A DNA stretch of 64,000 nucleotides. Origin: Perna viridis (Eukaryota). Shown here one piece after another: positions 30,001 to 36,000 of this stretch. The stretch lies in the NCBI GenBank assembly GCA_037379345.1, contig CM074519.1, positions 43,641,669 to 43,705,668 on the forward strand, read 5' to 3'. Position numbers: made by a program. Each line of letters opens with the position of its first letter. The stretch's first letter is position 1.

Positions 30001-33000
30001 TGAAATCAGTCTGTGATATTATCAAATTTGAGAACCAACATCTTTGGGGAAAGGGGTGTGTAATGTTTGCAGACCAAGCATCAAACATGTCTGCAGTAGC
30101 TATTTTTGTAAAATCGCAAAAAAATTGCAGTAGTAAATTGGTATGGCTGTTGTCATCGTCTGTGTCATCTTCATCCGTAGATGCTTGGCTTTCATGCTAG
30201 AACTTGAGTTTCGATTGATCTTTATAAAATTTTAAAACAAGGTTCCAAACCACAAAAGATAGGATAGTATTGATTTTTGGGGCTATGTTCCCAACTGTTT
30301 TATAATTAGACAAGCATTTCATGGAATTTAACTATATAACTTTGATTAAAGCATTGGAATGTCTAGGATATTGTTCCACAATAGTCTACTTGTTCTATAA
30401 CACAATGATCAGAGTTGGATTGATTTTTGGGGTGAAGACTTGTTTTTTAGAAATTAGGGGCCAAAAAGGGAAACATGAGCATTTTCCCTATGTCCAGACA
30501 GTAACTTGACTATTGGTGAATGAATGGCTTTGATATTGTATAAGGTGCAATACCACAAAAGGCAGATATGGATTGATTTTTGGGGTTGTTAATTTCTGGT
30601 CTATTTTTTCATTGGATATAAAGGGCCAAAGAGGACCATGTCCCAAAAATTGGAACTAATTTATTTTTGGTGCGCTTCAGAATTTTTTTTCCATTGAATT
30701 CCACAAGAAAATCCCAGCCTCAATACAAGTTTTAAGAAGAATGCTTTCCAAATCTTTTTTTTAGGTTGATCCATTAATGCACCATGAAGCAGACCTTTGT
30801 ACTTAAATTGAATTTCAAAATATTGTGCAATATTGTGTCCAAAATGAGTTGTCGTATCCATAATGAACTGTAAGTCCTATGTTAAGTATGTCAAAAACTA
30901 ATTTTGTGTCCACACTTGCCCGTAGTGAACAGAGTTCAACTGTCTGCGGTCGTATCATGCTGCGTTCGGTGGAGCCTTTTATTAGCCTATAACTAGATGG
31001 AAATTTTCAATTGTTGAAATTATCGGTAAGACAATGCTACAAAAGGTGTCATTGTTCAGGGTTTGACGACTCAATTTAGGAATTATTGCCCTTGACCAAT
31101 TGTGTTTCGGTTGTATACTAACTTGAAAACAGTAACAGATTAAAAAAAAACCTTAATGTTATAATCCTTATAGCAATATTAAGTCCTATAGCGTTCAAGT
31201 TGTTTAATGATTCCATATTAGAGTTGTCGTTAAAAGTTAAAAAAGACATATTTTACAAGGTGAACGAATCACCCTGCGTAGAGTCTCTCGTTTTACATTG
31301 TTGATGCCTTATGTCTGACTTCAACTTTTAAAGGTCTTCCACCACTTCCACTCTGATCAGAGTTTTGTCAAACATTTAATCGAAGATCTATAACAAGTTT
31401 TAATGTTGGTGTCCGTACTTGTCCCATCTTCTCCGGGTTCAACCTTTGCAGTAATATCAAGCTGTGGCTTGCGAAGCATTTTATTATTTTTTTCCATTAA
31501 AAAACTGGAAGTGCAATATAATTAATTTTAATAGTAATTCAATTCATTTTTATAAAGCATACTTGTTGATACCATTCACAAGAAAAGATCATCTGCAGAA
31601 CTAAGATGGCTGAGAACATCTGTTGATGAATCAGTTGTATAAAATGTGTCTGAAATTGATCCACTGTCATGTACAGGGAATACACAAAACTCAGTCGATA
31701 ATGGTGTATTGCTTATTGTTGCTGCCTGTTTGTTCTCGCAACATATAGATCTCACTGTTAGTTCTAAAGGAGTGGAACCGTTAGGTTCGATGATTTCATT
31801 AGTATGACTACCTGCAGTACCAGTGTTGATAGTATCTGGGGTAGAATTTGACGAATTGTCGACACTTTCATAAAGTGTAACAGTGTTGACAGTTGAGTTC
31901 AAGTCCTGTATCTCTGCTAATGATTCTGTGGAAAATTGTCCCTCTTCATTGAAGACTTCGGAACTTGAATCACTCCCATCCTGTACAGAGACTATGAATC
32001 TTCTATCTAACCTGTTACCAACAGGACATGACTCACTATCATGTAGACTTTCAAAAGTAAACTGGTTACCACTATAGCTATCACTCAGAGACATTCTAGC
32101 ATTATCATGCTGGCCACTCGTATCTACTCTATGGCTGGGCGCTATGTAGAATTCGTGGTGTTGTAGCTCGGTAGGTTGGCACCCACCGCCTAAAACACAA
32201 TCCCATTCTGTAGGCTCAAAGTCTTCGTATTCCCAGGATCCAAGTAGATCATTAACTGTAACGTTGGTTGCTGATGACCTGCTGTTGTCTTCGCTGACAT
32301 TAGATGCAAAGCGAGTGCAGTTGCCACCATGGTAAGCTGTGAGGTGTTGAGAAAGACCTGTAGTAGGACTGGCTTCGGTGAGATATCGTATTTCTACAGA
32401 AGTATTTGGTATCATGGTTTCAATATAACCTCCACATCCTGTGGATGCTACTAAAGGTAATTGACCTGAATTTGTTTGCTCTCCCGAAACTACTCCAGGA
32501 GTTGATGTTCCTTGTAAGAGTTCAACATTTTGAGGACTGACTGACTTTGTTCTTCCAACCTGTTCTTCTGTGCAGGATCTTACGTTACCATGGAAATCGC
32601 TACCAGTTTCTTCCAGTTTAATTCTTTTTTTAGGAATATAGGATTCGGGATCATCTTCTGTTTCAGAATTCACTTCAACGCTGCTATTCTCATCATCATC
32701 ATCGGTTGCTTCATCATCAGCTTCCACTTCAACATCTTCATCTGTTTCATCGCTTTCGCTATCATCTGGGTAATCATTATCTGCTTCGTTGATATCCATG
32801 AACTCAGGCTGAAATTCTTCATCACTTTCATCGTTGCTATCAAACATTAACGCTGCAAAGACACCACCTTCATCATCTGTAATATCATTCTCGTCATCGT
32901 CGTTATTTTCCTCTCTATCTCCGTTATTTTCTGTATCCTCTTGATTTTCATCATTCTCAACCTCAACATTTTCATTGTTTACATTGGCATCAACATGTGC

Positions 33001-36000
33001 ATCGTTATTATTTCCAGCTTCGTTCTCGTTTTCTTGATTATCCGGCCTTTCGTTATTTTCATTGTTGTTATCAACCTGAGGGACTATGACATCTTCGTTT
33101 CCATCATTTCCTTCACCATTTTCATCTTCTACGTCTTCATTATTTCCTACTTCATTAATAATGGCTTGTTGGTTATCTTCATTTTCATTTCCTACTTCTG
33201 GGTTATTATCAACATTGGCATCATCCCCATTAGCTCTTTCTCCTCCATTCTCAATATTTACACCTTGGACGTCAACATTTTCTGCCTCATCATTGACTTG
33301 GTCTACATTATTTCCAATTACTGCGTTTCCCCCACCATGGATATCATCTTCGTTTTCAGATTCTTCAGTTTCATCTTCAGTATCCTCTTCTTCCTCCTCG
33401 GATGATATCGCCTGTGTTGTTATTATCACATTTGGATTTCTCTGATTAATTGCTTGGACAAGTTGTTTTCTGATGAATAATAAGTACCGCAACTCTGACT
33501 CATTTAAACCTAAAACTCCAAGATTCAGGGAACGAAGGTCTGGAATAAATAAAATCGAAATATGAACACAGAAATCCGAGATTTAAGGAACAGAAGTCTG
33601 AAAAGAAGTGAAAAATATATGGGGTATATACCTAGAACTCCTTGAGTTCCAGGAGGCTTCATGTTTATGGGTGTCTGAAAAAAATCTAACATTGAAATCA
33701 AGTAACTATACTCTTGGAATCATAAAGCAAAGATAATCTATCGTCAGAGGGTCAAGACATTCCTTTGAGAACACAGATTTATACCATTTGATCGTTTTAC
33801 ATAGCCAGATGTGACACGAGTAACTCTGGGTATTTTTACTGTAGTGCACAATACGCTTAGCTACCCTACCAGTGCATCGGATTCTTCTAAGTTTTTATTT
33901 TGTGAATTTATAATTTTTAAAAATCGTTTTTAAATAATATAACTGAACTTATCTATGGAACGCAATAAGGGCCTTAAGATAAAGGTAAACGTTATAGATG
34001 GTGCAGTTAATGAATTACATTACAATTAATTTGTTGCACCGGGCTGTGTGTTTTACGTATTATATTGTGAATTGGATATTAGTAGTAATTCATTATCTGC
34101 GCCATCTATAACATTATCTTTGTCTTCTGGGCCTTTATGGCGTTCCATACTTATCATTGTCACTTTTATAAGCTATGCTGACTAAAGCGTCGGCTTACAG
34201 TGCTAGACAATCACACTATTTGTGCTGAGCTAAGACTAGTACAACACAATGTTGGTATTGGTCGTTTTGTATCACGTGATACTGGTAGACAAGAAAATCG
34301 CGATTTTAAGACAAGGCAAATTAAGTTTAAGAGAGGTGACATAGACTACTTACTTATATGGTGGTGTTGTTGCATCTGACAGATCTTTTCCACCGTGTTT
34401 ACAGACATTCTACAGAACAGACTGAGATCTCTGACTCTCTGGCATCTGCTGAGAAAATATAGGATCTCATCATCAACCGGCATGTGTTTGTCTAGATGTA
34501 AGCTGAAACTCCCTGTAACATATAATACATTAGTGTGTACAAAGACAGTTCAATGACGACGCCGTGGGTAATTCACTGTTATCGGTGGCGCTGCATGGTA
34601 TACTAATAATCACTTTTAGTCTCCTTGTTTTGGCGGAGACTATAGATTTTCAATACGTGAGTCCAGTAATTTGCCCATCACATACATACTGTCATACCTT
34701 TTGTTTTCCTACCGCTGTGACATCTTGGCATTGTTCACCTTCAGTGAGTTTTGGCAAAATTACATTTAATATACAGAACTTTGCACTTGGTAACTTTCAT
34801 GAAAATATCCTCCTTCATTTCTGAATGTTTTAAGATGTTGAGATGACCTTTGGTGTTGTGGGAATACAAATCAAATTTACGGTTAAATCCATTTTTTAGA
34901 AAAAATCATAAAGTAGTAATTATCCCCCAAAAAAATTATTGTACTACTAGTATGTCAATAACTTGTACTCATTTTGCCTAATTCGTAGAAAGAGAAGTAC
35001 ATCGAACAGATAACGGTGTTTTGAGGGTAGAATATTATTTTGTCCTTTGAATTAAAATTTGTGTAAAAAGAGCACATTAAAACTCCTGCTGTTATTCAGG
35101 GAATTTAACTAATGTCATAGTTTGTGAAACTCGAAGCAATTAAACCAGACCAAATAAACTAGCACTAAAAATCGACCATAACTAGTATAATGTACCATGC
35201 AAATGCACCACTAGATTAATCACCATTCCTTTCTCCAAACTCAAGCTAAGCTAATTAGTTTATATAAACAAGAATAGACAGAACAATCCCTTACAAATGT
35301 ATCACAAACATATGTTTATTTAACATCTTATCGAGGGACTGGACCCTTAAAAGTTAAAGTAATTTTATCGTGATGTTAGCTTGGCTGTTAAGCAACTCTA
35401 TATTTCACAATGTTATAATTATTTTATCGTGATGTACGAGAGGAAAGTTAGCTATTAAGCAACTCTATTCCACAATGTTATAATTACTGTCTATCAGGCG
35501 TCAAAACGCCTTTCATGTTAGTAAACCTACCAATTCTGTCTTGTATTTCACTTACCAAGAGTATCAGAGTAGACATTTCCGATGTGATGAATCAGTCCAC
35601 ACAGTCTTTGTAAGCTTTCCATTCTATTTTCAACAATCGCAGGCCAAGCAATGATATCAACCTCGTACATTGGGATTGTCTCTGGTAAGGCATGATGTAT
35701 TGTATGACGGAATCCTGCGGCGTACAAATAAAATATGACTTTAGTAGAAGGACAGTCGTATTTAAAGTTGGTCCATTCTTCTGGTGGTATGAGGCAGTTG
35801 TTGACATCGTTATCAATAGTTAATGTTAGTTTGTCCATTTTCTTTTGTTTTGCAAACATTCTGAGAATGCTTCCACACATTGTGTTATAATTGGTGTAGA
35901 TGTATTCCAGTGCTATTAGTTTAACTATTGCCTCTCGGTATCGTGTTATAGAAACTGGTGTAACATCGGTCTGGAACATGTCTTCCATGTAGAAAATCTT

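What the first reader, a model, noticed from the sequence alone, without database searches (positions are those of the whole stretch)
31576..33539. FBXO39 paralog that gained a ~600-aa acidic disordered tail with NLS/SUMO and LIR-like motifs
Seen: the last exon starts like the 51-aa last exon of the neighbouring FBXO39 but stays open for ~654 codons. It contains ~260 aa of D/E/N-rich sequence almost free of Lys, then PKKRIKLEE (32611-32634; monopartite NLS overlapping a psi-K-x-E SUMO consensus), then an S/T-rich region with an acidic EPTEWDCVL (LIR-like W-x-x-V, 32194-32205), ending in DDLFL. A 2-kb stop-free frame in AT-rich DNA implies selection. Established: mammalian FBXO39 is testis-enriched. 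Inference: an SCF adaptor fused to a nucleoplasmin-like polyanion might bind basic chromatin proteins (histones or sperm protamine-like proteins) and couple chaperoning to ubiquitination.
Basis: partly seen in the sequence, partly recalled or inferred. Interest (0 to 1): 0.7.

Follow-up and report, generated by a model that had tools for sequence, protein, structure and literature searches.

The report
Mussel F-box protein with lysine-free acidic tail

Summary
On the minus strand, 33539..31576 is one open frame of 653 codons plus stop. It begins with the last leucine-rich-repeat helix of an F-box/LRR protein. It then runs through 256 D/E/N-rich residues with no lysine, the motif PKKRIKLEE, and 343 S/T-rich residues ending DDLFL.

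The three-exon model is colinear with a 980-aa Mytilus galloprovincialis protein (LOC143074950) and with 430-aa oyster 'F-box only protein 39-like' proteins. The Mytilus protein has a 550-aa acidic tail with 0 lysines; the oyster proteins have no tail.

Lysine avoidance is strong: AAR versus AAY codons against GAR versus GAY, p = 8e-13. The S/T-rich half matched only same-species copies among 1.84 billion representatives. The NLS-like cluster exceeds chance (77 of 20000 shuffles). The SUMO and LIR-like motifs do not.

Best reading: an SCF substrate receptor whose last exon was extended, in the mussel lineage, into a polyanionic 'lysine desert' tail. The tail likely engages basic partners while escaping self-ubiquitination. 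That function is inferred. The tail is not a nucleoplasmin relative. I rate it a new variant of a known kind, of moderate interest.

The parts
35556..36555 (-). Exon 1 of the tail gene: start codon, F-box, and most of the LRR solenoid (333 codons plus 1 base; donor GTAAGT follows).
   Evidence: ORF. Pfam F-box E 1.5e-09 and F-box-like E 5.4e-09, both above cut-off. 71% identical to Mytilus P0003 residues 9-333. AF2 model mean pLDDT 85. Best PDB fold match is FBXL3, 4i6j_B, E 6e-12. Donor read.
34354..34512 (-). Exon 2 (159 bases, phase 1 at both ends): one more LRR.
   Evidence: tblastn of P0003 residues 335-381 at 83% identity and of oyster P0008 residues 334-384 at 43%. Acceptor CAG and donor GTAAGT read.
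31576..33539 (-). Exon 3, the finding: a split codon, 653 codons and the stop. It holds the last LRR helix plus the whole tail.
   Evidence: P0003 residues 388-429 align to 33537..33412 at 67% identity.
33406..33539 (-). End of the folded domain (exon-3 residues 1-44), homologous to the C-terminus of the short forms.
   Evidence: Aligns to P0003, oyster P0008 residues 385-423 and the neighbour's last exon. It is the only confident part of the AF2 model of exon 3, with a helix at residues 13-33.
32638..33405 (-). Acidic, Asn-rich, lysine-free segment (exon-3 residues 45-300; net charge -99).
   Evidence: pLDDT is below 50 nearly throughout.
32608..32634 (-). PKKRIKLEE: a basic cluster fitting a monopartite NLS pattern and psi-K-x-E. 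It holds 3 of the 5 lysines of the 609-residue tail.
   Evidence: In residue shuffles of the tail, K[KR]x[KR] is reached in 77 of 20000 and psi-K-x-E in 2874 of 20000. Absent from P0003.
31579..32607 (-). S/T-rich orphan segment (exon-3 residues 311-653), including WDCV at 32194-32205 and the DDLFL end.
   Evidence: The only match among 1,835,955,588 representatives is the same-species P0001. The Atlas gave no usable hit. PDB gave 0 matches.
31480..31485 (-). AATAAA about 90 bases after the stop: a candidate polyadenylation signal. This is a bare motif in AT-rich DNA.
   Evidence: Read. Not tested against chance.
36556..36890 (.). 335-bp spacer between the two divergent start codons (head-to-head paralogs). 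A possible shared promoter region.
   Evidence: ORF coordinates. Not analysed further.
36891..39778 (+). Neighbouring short paralog: exons 36891-37938, 38490-38651 and 39624-39778 (454 codons by arithmetic). It has the same intron positions and phases as the tail gene, and no tail.
   Evidence: Exon 1 is 32% identical to the tail gene's exon 1.

Best explanation
The region is the last coding exon of a mussel (mytilid) FBXO39-like F-box/LRR protein, that is, a substrate receptor of an SCF (SKP1-cullin-F-box) ubiquitin ligase.

Shown:
- The three exons sum to 1040 codons by arithmetic.
- Relative to the 430-aa oyster homologs and the 454-codon neighbour, the reading frame continues past the point where the short forms stop.
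- It continues into about 609 residues predicted to be disordered. These comprise a 256-residue polyanion without lysine, one basic cluster, and a 343-residue S/T-rich acidic segment.
- A Mytilus galloprovincialis relative has a 550-residue tail of the same composition with no lysine.
- That tail has no demonstrable positional similarity to this one. What the two tails share is their bulk composition (charge, Asn-richness, lack of Lys).

Inferred:
- The tail hangs from the C-terminal end of the LRR solenoid, where FBXL-type receptors meet their substrates. It acts as an electrostatic arm that captures or holds basic partners for the ligase.
- Its lysine desert keeps this flexible arm from being ubiquitinated by its own ligase.
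- The basic cluster probably serves nuclear import in this species.
- A role in male germ cells is suggested by the family's expression in other bivalves. The identity of the partners (histones, protamine-like proteins or others) is open.
For: Gene model:
- P0003 and P0008 are colinear over three exons.
- The split junction codon Asn matches P0003.
- The paralog has the same intron phases.

Fold:
- Pfam F-box above cut-off.
- AF2 mean pLDDT 85.
- Foldseek top matches are FBXL3 (E 6e-12), FBXL2, TIR1 and SKP2.

Tail is coding and constrained:
- 0 stops in 653 codons, against 10-36 per about 352 codons in the other frames of the S/T part.
- The ORF is intact in two further same-species contigs, with 4 and 1 residue differences.
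- Acidic part: AAR 0, AAY 48, GAR 55, GAY 47, p = 8e-13.
- Mytilus tail: K 0, R 13, N 81 of 550, against K 24, R 32, N 20 of 430 in its folded part. K:N p = 5e-14 and K:R p = 0.0027.
- Ours outside the basic motif: K:R is 2:14 against 20:26 in exon 1, p = 0.034.
- The longest lysine-free runs are 278 residues here and 576 in P0003. Both exceed the 150-aa criterion used in PMC10665810 (passages).

Disorder: 596 of 653 residues have pLDDT below 50 (single sequence).

Precedents:
- Lysine-free disordered substrate-binding regions protect the E3 ligase San1 from self-ubiquitination, and lysine deserts are enriched in the ubiquitin system (PMC10665810 passages; PMC10169902 abstract).
- The unstructured acidic C-terminal tail of the CRL4 receptor DCAF1 binds basic grooves of PLK4 (PMC10942865 passages).

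Germline context.
Against: - There is no expression or splice-read evidence for this gene. The two same-species contigs gave only the 617-aa ORF, so they show no splicing.
- Only one tailed relative was found (1 of 2294 candidates). How NCBI's model for it was supported could not be seen.
- Positional similarity of the tails is not above composition-matched shuffles. 62 of 300 shuffles reach the observed score. The first 66 tail residues do better (3 of 300), but I picked that stretch after looking. For the S/T part against the middle of the Mytilus tail, 707 of 1000 shuffles reach the score.
- Arg is also depleted (3 of 256). Part of the Lys avoidance may therefore be plain selection for negative charge. 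In our species the Lys-specific excess is modest (p = 0.034).
- The basic cluster is not shared with Mytilus.
- Low pLDDT from a single-sequence fold is weak evidence of disorder.
- No binding partner is known.
Confidence: 0.5

Rival explanations
1. The tail is an autoinhibitory arm. The polyanion folds back on the ligase itself rather than recruiting substrates. It could bind the net-positive F-box/LRR domain, or the basic surface of the cullin that the acidic tail of the E2 enzyme Cdc34/UBE2R uses. Either way it would gate activity.
For: The folded parts are net positive: +11 for exon 1, +13 for Mytilus residues 1-430, +15 for the oyster protein. The tail carries -99 and -35. Cdc34 orthologs have a highly acidic C-terminal extension that functions in binding to SCF (title and abstract of PMC2794717). 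Lysine avoidance fits this reading equally well.
Against: Nothing tested here distinguishes cis from trans binding. A tail of 550-600 residues is much longer than a plug would need. The cullin-surface idea is recalled knowledge plus inference.
Confidence: 0.15
2. The tail is a tolerated, essentially functionless low-complexity extension. It arose by loss of the ancestral stop and drifts rapidly. Its composition reflects only what is harmless on an E3 receptor.
For: No positional conservation with the Mytilus tail. The S/T half is an orphan. The oyster homologs and the neighbour work without a tail. 4 of the 5 residue differences among three haplotypes fall in the S/T half.
Against: Two lineages whose folded domains differ by 30% both keep more than 550 open codons. 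Both keep extreme lysine avoidance although Glu and Asn codons are one change away from Lys codons. A 343-codon open frame of ordinary complexity is not expected without constraint. 'Harmless composition' is itself a form of selection against lysine.
Confidence: 0.2
3. The tail is a nucleoplasmin-like chaperone module whose NLS/SUMO site and LIR-like W-x-x-V motif are functional. It couples histone or protamine-like protein chaperoning to ubiquitination and autophagy.
For: The charge density is like that of acidic histone-binding tracts. The basic cluster is above chance (77 of 20000). FBXO39-annotated genes are male-gonad-biased in bivalves. Protamine-like proteins are the main sperm nuclear basic proteins of Mytilus (abstracts).
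Against: No nucleoplasmin core or any other domain is found in the tail. psi-K-x-E is reached in 2874 of 20000 shuffles. [WFY]xx[LIV] is observed 5 times against 4.4 expected, and the acid-preceded form once against 2.4 expected. None of these motifs is in the Mytilus protein at a comparable place. That protein has no lysine in its tail at all, so it has no SUMO or NLS lysines there.
Confidence: 0.1
4. This is a gene-model artefact. The tail ORF is not part of the F-box mRNA. It would be a separate gene, a retained piece of another gene, or an assembly error.
For: No transcript evidence was available. The gene callers behind P0001 and P0002 reported the ORF on its own.
Against: The ORF has no ATG near its start. 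Its first 44 residues are the conserved last LRR helix of the family, in the same frame with nothing in between. The Mytilus RefSeq model joins the same parts. The same ORF is present in two other assemblies.
Confidence: 0.05

Closest known systems
Mytilus galloprovincialis uncharacterized protein LOC143074950 isoform X1 (P0003, 980 aa; NCBI/UniRef name as given)
   Same: It has the same F-box/LRR body: 70% identity over exon 1, 83% over exon 2 and 67% over the LRR end. The exon order is the same, and the tail starts at the same point. Its tail is 550 residues, rich in D/E/N, with no lysine.
   Different: No basic cluster, no S/T-rich distal half and no DDLFL end. The tail sequences are not alignable above shuffles. 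Its tail contains an internal near-duplicate unit, seen by eye.
Oyster 'F-box only protein 39-like' (Saccostrea echinata P0008, S. cucullata P0011; 430 aa) and, by name, mammalian FBXO39
   Same: 42-43% identity to exon 1. Colinear over all three exons. F-box by Pfam. The family is testis-enriched in mouse and male-gonad-biased in bivalves.
   Different: The oyster proteins stop about 8 residues after the stretch that aligns with exon-3 residues 1-39, so they have no tail. No vertebrate FBXO39 sequence came back from my searches, so orthology to it rests on NCBI's name for the oyster proteins.
DCAF1 (substrate receptor of the CRL4 ligase) with its unstructured acidic C-terminal tail
   Same: A cullin-RING substrate receptor whose folded domain is followed by a disordered acidic tail. 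That tail itself binds basic grooves of a substrate, PLK4 (PMC10942865, passages).
   Different: A different cullin, adaptor and fold (WD40 rather than F-box/LRR). By the fragment bounds quoted in that paper, the DCAF1 tail is about 110 residues, against about 600 here. There is no sequence relation.
Lysine-desert E3 components (San1, Slx5, RNF-type ligases, CRL receptors)
   Same: Long disordered lysine-free regions in ubiquitin-system proteins, proposed to prevent self-ubiquitination (PMC10665810 passages; PMC10169902 abstract). The 278- and 576-residue lysine-free runs meet the 150-aa criterion.
   Different: None of the passages I read names an F-box protein ('F-box' occurs 0 times in PMC10665810). 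The deserts described there are not specifically polyanionic.
Nucleoplasmin-type and other acidic histone chaperones
   Same: Long D/E tracts, a nuclear-import-like basic cluster, and a germ-cell context. The family properties are recalled, not from a call.
   Different: No nucleoplasmin core domain or any chaperone fold was detected. Here the acidic tract is attached to a ligase receptor.
Cdc34/UBE2R acidic tail
   Same: An acidic C-terminal extension acting within SCF complexes (PMC2794717 title and abstract).
   Different: It sits on the E2 enzyme, not on the substrate receptor, and is far shorter (length recalled).

Membership tests
F-box proteins (SCF substrate receptors) | F-box motif near the N-terminus | tested here: met
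   Pfam F-box 37.8 bits (cut-off 20.5) and F-box-like 36.1 bits (cut-off 24.3) at residues 10-55 of exon 1. PDB sequence matches to the SKP2 and FBXL3 F-boxes.
F-box proteins (SCF substrate receptors) | Binding to SKP1 and assembly with a cullin | not testable with these tools
   Inferred from the motif only.
FBXL-type fold (F-box followed by an LRR solenoid) | Alternating strand-helix LRR solenoid after the F-box | tested here: met
   The AF2 model of exon 1 with a 10-row alignment has mean pLDDT 85 and pTM 0.82. Foldseek against PDB: FBXL3 4i6j_B E 6e-12 with TM 0.61, then FBXL2, TIR1, SKP2 and D3. Exon 1 was modelled alone, so the last repeats (exons 2-3) were not in the model.
FBXO39 orthogroup | Closest named relatives are FBXO39 | tested here: met
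   Of the 9 hits, 3 carry names. Two are 'F-box only protein 39-like' (Saccostrea, 42-43% identity) and one is an unnamed Mytilus edulis product.
FBXO39 orthogroup | Reciprocal best match to vertebrate FBXO39 | not tested
   No vertebrate FBXO39 came back. The Atlas neighbours are chordate clusters named 'F-box domain-containing protein' and 'F-box/LRR-repeat protein 8-like'.
FBXO39 orthogroup | Male-germline expression | not testable with these tools
   Known for the family in mouse and in three bivalves, not for this gene. With two paralogs in the window, those reports cannot be assigned to either copy.
Nucleoplasmin/nucleophosmin histone chaperones | Conserved oligomerising core domain (Pfam nucleoplasmin model; name recalled) | tested here: not met
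   The Pfam scan of the tail exon (E up to 1) returned only a sub-threshold ANAPC15 match. No domain is found in the Mytilus tail. 0 PDB sequence matches.
Nucleoplasmin/nucleophosmin histone chaperones | Long acidic tracts | tested here: met
   D+E 102 of 256 residues. This is a resemblance in composition, not membership.
Lysine-desert proteins | At least 150 consecutive residues without lysine (criterion as in PMC10665810), conserved in relatives | tested here: met
   Lysine-free runs of 278 residues (ours) and 576 (Mytilus). Codon test p = 8e-13. K:R tail versus fold p = 0.0027 in Mytilus. Conservation rests on two species.
Classical monopartite NLS | K-[KR]-x-[KR] cluster (pattern recalled), accessible and conserved | tested here: inconclusive
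   Present once. Reached in 77 of 20000 shuffles of the tail. Lies in a low-pLDDT region. Absent from the Mytilus tail, which has no lysine.
SUMO consensus site | psi-K-x-E (pattern recalled) beyond chance or conserved | tested here: not met
   Reached in 2874 of 20000 shuffles. Not conserved.
LIR/AIM (ATG8-interacting) motif | [WFY]-x-x-[LIV] with acidic flank (pattern recalled), beyond chance or conserved | tested here: not met
   Core: 5 observed against 4.4 expected. Acid-preceded: 1 observed against 2.4 expected. The Mytilus tail has 6 cores of its own at non-corresponding places.

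The most novel reading that the evidence does not exclude
In mussels, the FBXO39-like SCF receptor acquired a lysine-free polyanionic arm. This arm would let the ligase seize highly basic chromatin proteins (histones being evicted, or protamine-like proteins in excess) during sperm chromatin remodelling, while being immune to its own ubiquitination. 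That would be a ligase receptor with a built-in chaperone-like bait. The species-specific basic cluster would send it to the nucleus.
Probability: 0.12. Interest if true: 0.7.

Novelty: new variant of a known kind. Interest (0 to 1): 0.4.

Why it matters
F-box receptors are normally thought to recognise substrates through folded domains and short degrons. A receptor carrying a tail of about 600 residues, charge-defined and free of lysine, would show recruitment by bulk electrostatics. It would also be a clear natural case of the 'lysine desert' idea. In two mussel lineages the tail sequences cannot be aligned above chance, yet both stay long and acidic and both avoid lysine.

It also gives a concrete candidate for the poorly known machinery that handles basic nuclear proteins in bivalve spermiogenesis.

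If the tail proves neutral, the locus is still a clean example of how stop loss can add hundreds of codons to a conserved gene.

Tried and rejected
- Whole tail exon against the 5.8-billion protein set: 1 hit among the 8000 candidates scored, and it is the same species. Acidic words probably swamped the candidate list, so I searched the S/T half without a word index. That found only the same-species copy among 1.84 billion representatives.
- Atlas search of the S/T half: no usable hit.
- PDB by sequence for the tail: 0 matches.
- Positional homology of the two tails, as Smith-Waterman scores against residue shuffles: not significant overall (62 of 300), nor for the FAALM/FAQLM island with its flanks (40 of 300), nor for the S/T half against the less acidic middle of the Mytilus tail (707 of 1000). 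The by-eye islands are left as leads only. They are the H..V[IL]GN..Q.N.E unit near the tail start, the hydrophobic F-A-x-L-M patch, STG.C.GY[IV]E, and EDF followed by W-x-x-[VI]. Their order is not colinear between the two proteins.
- Tandem-repeat origin of the acidic part: rejected.
- Sub-threshold Pfam matches are treated as chance: ANAPC15 on the tail, Herpes_UL1 on the neighbour, ASFV_360 on exon 2.
- The paper search, with min_terms 2, returned only general bivalve papers and was useless.
- Papers on an acidic tail on an F-box protein and on Mytilus with F-box and protamine-like proteins: none of the listed papers describes such a protein, judging from titles and abstract starts only.
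- dN/dS could not be computed. No DNA of the relatives was obtainable, and the tails do not align.

Full report
**What is there.** The window is AT-rich (GC about 0.30-0.42) and has no N. It is animal DNA. The closest named relatives of its genes are from Mytilus and oysters, so I take it for a mussel of the family Mytilidae other than the Mytilus species in the protein sets. Nothing in it was taken for human.

On the minus strand, 33537..31579 is open for 653 codons, then TGA. The two bases before it follow a pyrimidine tract and CAG. The protein of this exon has four parts:
- Residues 1-44 are ordinary sequence.
- Residues 45-300 hold D+E 102, N 48, K 0 and R 3 of 256 (net charge -99).
- Residues 302-310 are PKKRIKLEE.
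- Residues 311-653 hold S+T 89 of 343 and K 2 (net charge -35), and end in DDLFL.

**Is it more than chance?**
- In the S/T part the other five frames have 10-36 stops per about 352 codons, against none in this frame.
- In the acidic part the coding strand is 68% purine, and the other five frames have 1, 6, 8, 10 and 69 stops per about 250 codons. A stop-free frame is therefore weaker evidence there.
- The stronger signal in the acidic part is lysine avoidance. After AA the third base is never a purine (AAR 0, AAY 48). After GA it is a purine in 55 of 102 codons. Fisher p = 8e-13. A mutational bias cannot make that distinction.
- No tandem array underlies the region.
- Two further same-species contigs carry the same ORF intact, with 4 and 1 residue differences once the start-codon artefact is set aside.

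**Gene model.** I tested the model exon by exon. The joined protein was not built, searched or folded.
- Exon 1 (36555..35556) has an F-box above Pfam's cut-offs.
- With an alignment of 8 of the 9 hits plus the two window paralogs (the 220-aa fragment P0007 was left out), exon 1 folds at mean pLDDT 85. The fold is an F-box plus LRR solenoid whose best solved matches are FBXL3 (E 6e-12), FBXL2, TIR1 and SKP2.
- A 980-aa Mytilus galloprovincialis protein (LOC143074950 isoform X1, P0003) was the single hit of 2294 longer candidates.
- It aligns colinearly to three blocks of the window. Residues 9-333 match at 71%, residues 335-381 at 83% and residues 388-429 at 67%.
- A 430-aa oyster 'F-box only protein 39-like' protein does the same, on both window genes.
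- Donors are GTAAGT.
- The split codon at 34354|33539 reads Asn, as in the Mytilus protein before LRSLNLG.
- The neighbour has introns at the same places and phases.
- By arithmetic the coding length is 1000 + 159 + 1964 bases, which is 1040 codons plus stop.
- There is no transcript evidence.

**Relation to the neighbour and to FBXO39.** The plus-strand neighbour starts 335 bp away, head to head. Its exons are 36891-37938, 38490-38651 and 39624-39778, and it ends after a 51-aa last exon. The two genes are old paralogs: 32% identity in exon 1 and 11 of 42 at the start of the last exon.

The oyster FBXO39-like protein is 42% identical to the tail gene but 27% to the neighbour. The tail gene is therefore the main-line copy, not a derived duplicate. 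The oyster proteins stop a few residues after the LRR helix. The tail thus looks like an extension of the last exon, gained on the mussel side or lost on the oyster side. Orthology to vertebrate FBXO39 rests on NCBI's name for the oyster proteins. No vertebrate sequence came back, and the Atlas neighbours are generic chordate F-box clusters.

**What is conserved in the tail.**
- The Mytilus tail (residues 431-980) has D+E 215, N 81, R 13 and K 0. Its lysine-free run is 576 residues; ours is 278.
- Against its own folded part, K:N differs at p = 5e-14 and K:R at p = 0.0027. So lysine is avoided beyond the general avoidance of positive charge.
- In our protein outside the basic motif, K:R is 2:14 against 20:26 in exon 1 (p = 0.034).
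- Positional similarity of the tails is not demonstrable. 62 of 300 shuffles reach the real score. Only the first 66 tail residues stand out (3 of 300), and I chose that window after looking.
- The S/T half matches nothing. One hit among 1,835,955,588 representatives is the same-species copy. The Atlas gave no usable hit. PDB gave 0 matches. It shows no similarity to the Mytilus tail.
- No Pfam domain lies in either tail.
- A single-sequence AF2 run gives pLDDT below 50 for 596 of 653 residues. The only confident part is the LRR helix.

**Motifs.** I tested them against 20000 residue shuffles of the 609-residue tail.
- K[KR]x[KR] is reached in 77 shuffles. The basic cluster is non-random, and it holds 3 of the tail's 5 lysines.
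- psi-K-x-E is reached in 2874 shuffles.
- [WFY]xx[LIV] occurs 5 times against 4.4 expected.
- The acid-preceded form occurs once against 2.4 expected.

The SUMO and LIR readings therefore have no support beyond the letters. None of the motifs is shared with Mytilus. The motif patterns themselves are recalled, not taken from a call.

**How it most likely works.**

Shown: an SCF-type receptor fold, followed by a long, probably disordered, polyanionic, lysine-poor tail whose bulk properties, though not its sequence, recur in a second mussel lineage.

Inferred: the tail emerges at the C-terminal end of the LRR arc. In my recollection, FBXL3 and SKP2 use their C-terminal tails in substrate engagement there. 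A flexible polyanion at that position would attract basic proteins. It would also be an ideal target for the ligase's own E2 unless it lacked lysine.

Two precedents:
- Disordered lysine-free substrate-binding regions spare the E3 San1 from self-ubiquitination, and lysine deserts are common in the ubiquitin system (PMC10665810, passages; PMC10169902, abstract).
- The unstructured acidic tail of the CRL4 receptor DCAF1 binds basic grooves of PLK4 (PMC10942865, passages).

Germline context:
- FBXO39 is testis-enriched and needed for spermiogenesis in mouse (titles and abstract starts).
- 'F-box only protein 39' transcripts are male-gonad-specific in Pinctada.
- They are male-biased in Tegillarca.
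- They are up in males and hermaphrodites of freshwater mussels.
- Which paralog those studies measured is unknown, and their supplements were closed.
- Protamine-like proteins are the main sperm nuclear basic proteins of Mytilus (abstract starts). This makes them, and histones, plausible partners but no more than that.

**Rivals.**
- Autoinhibition: the folded parts are net +11 to +15, and Cdc34's acidic tail binds SCF (PMC2794717, abstract).
- A tolerated neutral extension.
- A gene-model artefact.

They are weighed in their own sections.

**Comparison and novelty.** The body is a member of the F-box/LRR receptors and, by name of its nearest named relatives, FBXO39-like. The tail is not a member of the nucleoplasmin family, because the core domain was tested and not found. 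It may work like an acidic histone-binding tract. It meets the published length criterion for a lysine desert.

The Mytilus relative is in NCBI only as 'uncharacterized'. My paper searches for an acidic tail on an F-box protein, for FBXO39 and for Mytilus with F-box and protamine-like proteins listed no description of such a protein. That judgement rests on titles and abstract starts. I rate it a new variant of a known kind.

**Left unchecked.**
No DNA of other mussels could be fetched, so there is no synteny and no dN/dS.

**Seen in passing.** The virus-like stretch of the window is a decayed LTR-retroelement pol remnant near the right end. It was described only.

Noticed in passing
window 60937-62884, minus strand (may continue to the window end): This is the virus-like stretch: a remnant of a Ty3/gypsy-type LTR-retroelement pol gene. 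Pfam finds an RNase H-like domain of reverse transcriptase (E 4e-20), the integrase zinc-binding domain (E 1.5e-19) and core (E 4e-15), and a weak integrase C-terminal match. These lie on three separate ORFs. So pol is interrupted at least twice: at least one in-frame stop and at least one change of frame, judged from the ORF frames. Among the 11 ORFs scanned there was no match to the reverse-transcriptase polymerase domain itself, to protease or to gag. No direct repeat of 80 bp or more was found in 52-64 kb. Described only.
   Followed up: partly
window 36556-36890: The two FBXO39-like paralogs are head to head, with only 335 bp between their start codons. A shared bidirectional promoter is possible.
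   Followed up: no
window 35556/34512, 34354/33539 and 37938/38490, 38651/39624: Both paralogs have the same two intron positions, both in phase 1. At the second donor both read ...ATA A|GTAAGT, although the proteins are only about 30% identical.
   Followed up: yes
window about 42800-43010: Overlapping ORFs on both strands have periodic translations (for example repeated THCLVLG-like units). This suggests a short-period tandem repeat.
   Followed up: no
P0004 (unnamed Logan contig, 1101 nt): An exon-1 homolog 88% identical to the window's exon 1, read through into its intron. A closer relative than Mytilus therefore exists in public reads. No tail from it was found.
   Followed up: partly
P0003 residues about 465-500 and 510-545: The Mytilus tail contains two similar units (…NGH[VI][LI]GNLDGQ.N.EQP…VVNNED.GNE…), seen by eye. 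This points to an internal duplication within its acidic tail.
   Followed up: no
window 32590-33445, plus strand: Three antisense ORFs of 86-154 aa lie opposite the acidic segment. They follow from the purine-rich coding strand (one antisense frame has only 1 stop in 250 codons). I do not take them for genes.
   Followed up: yes
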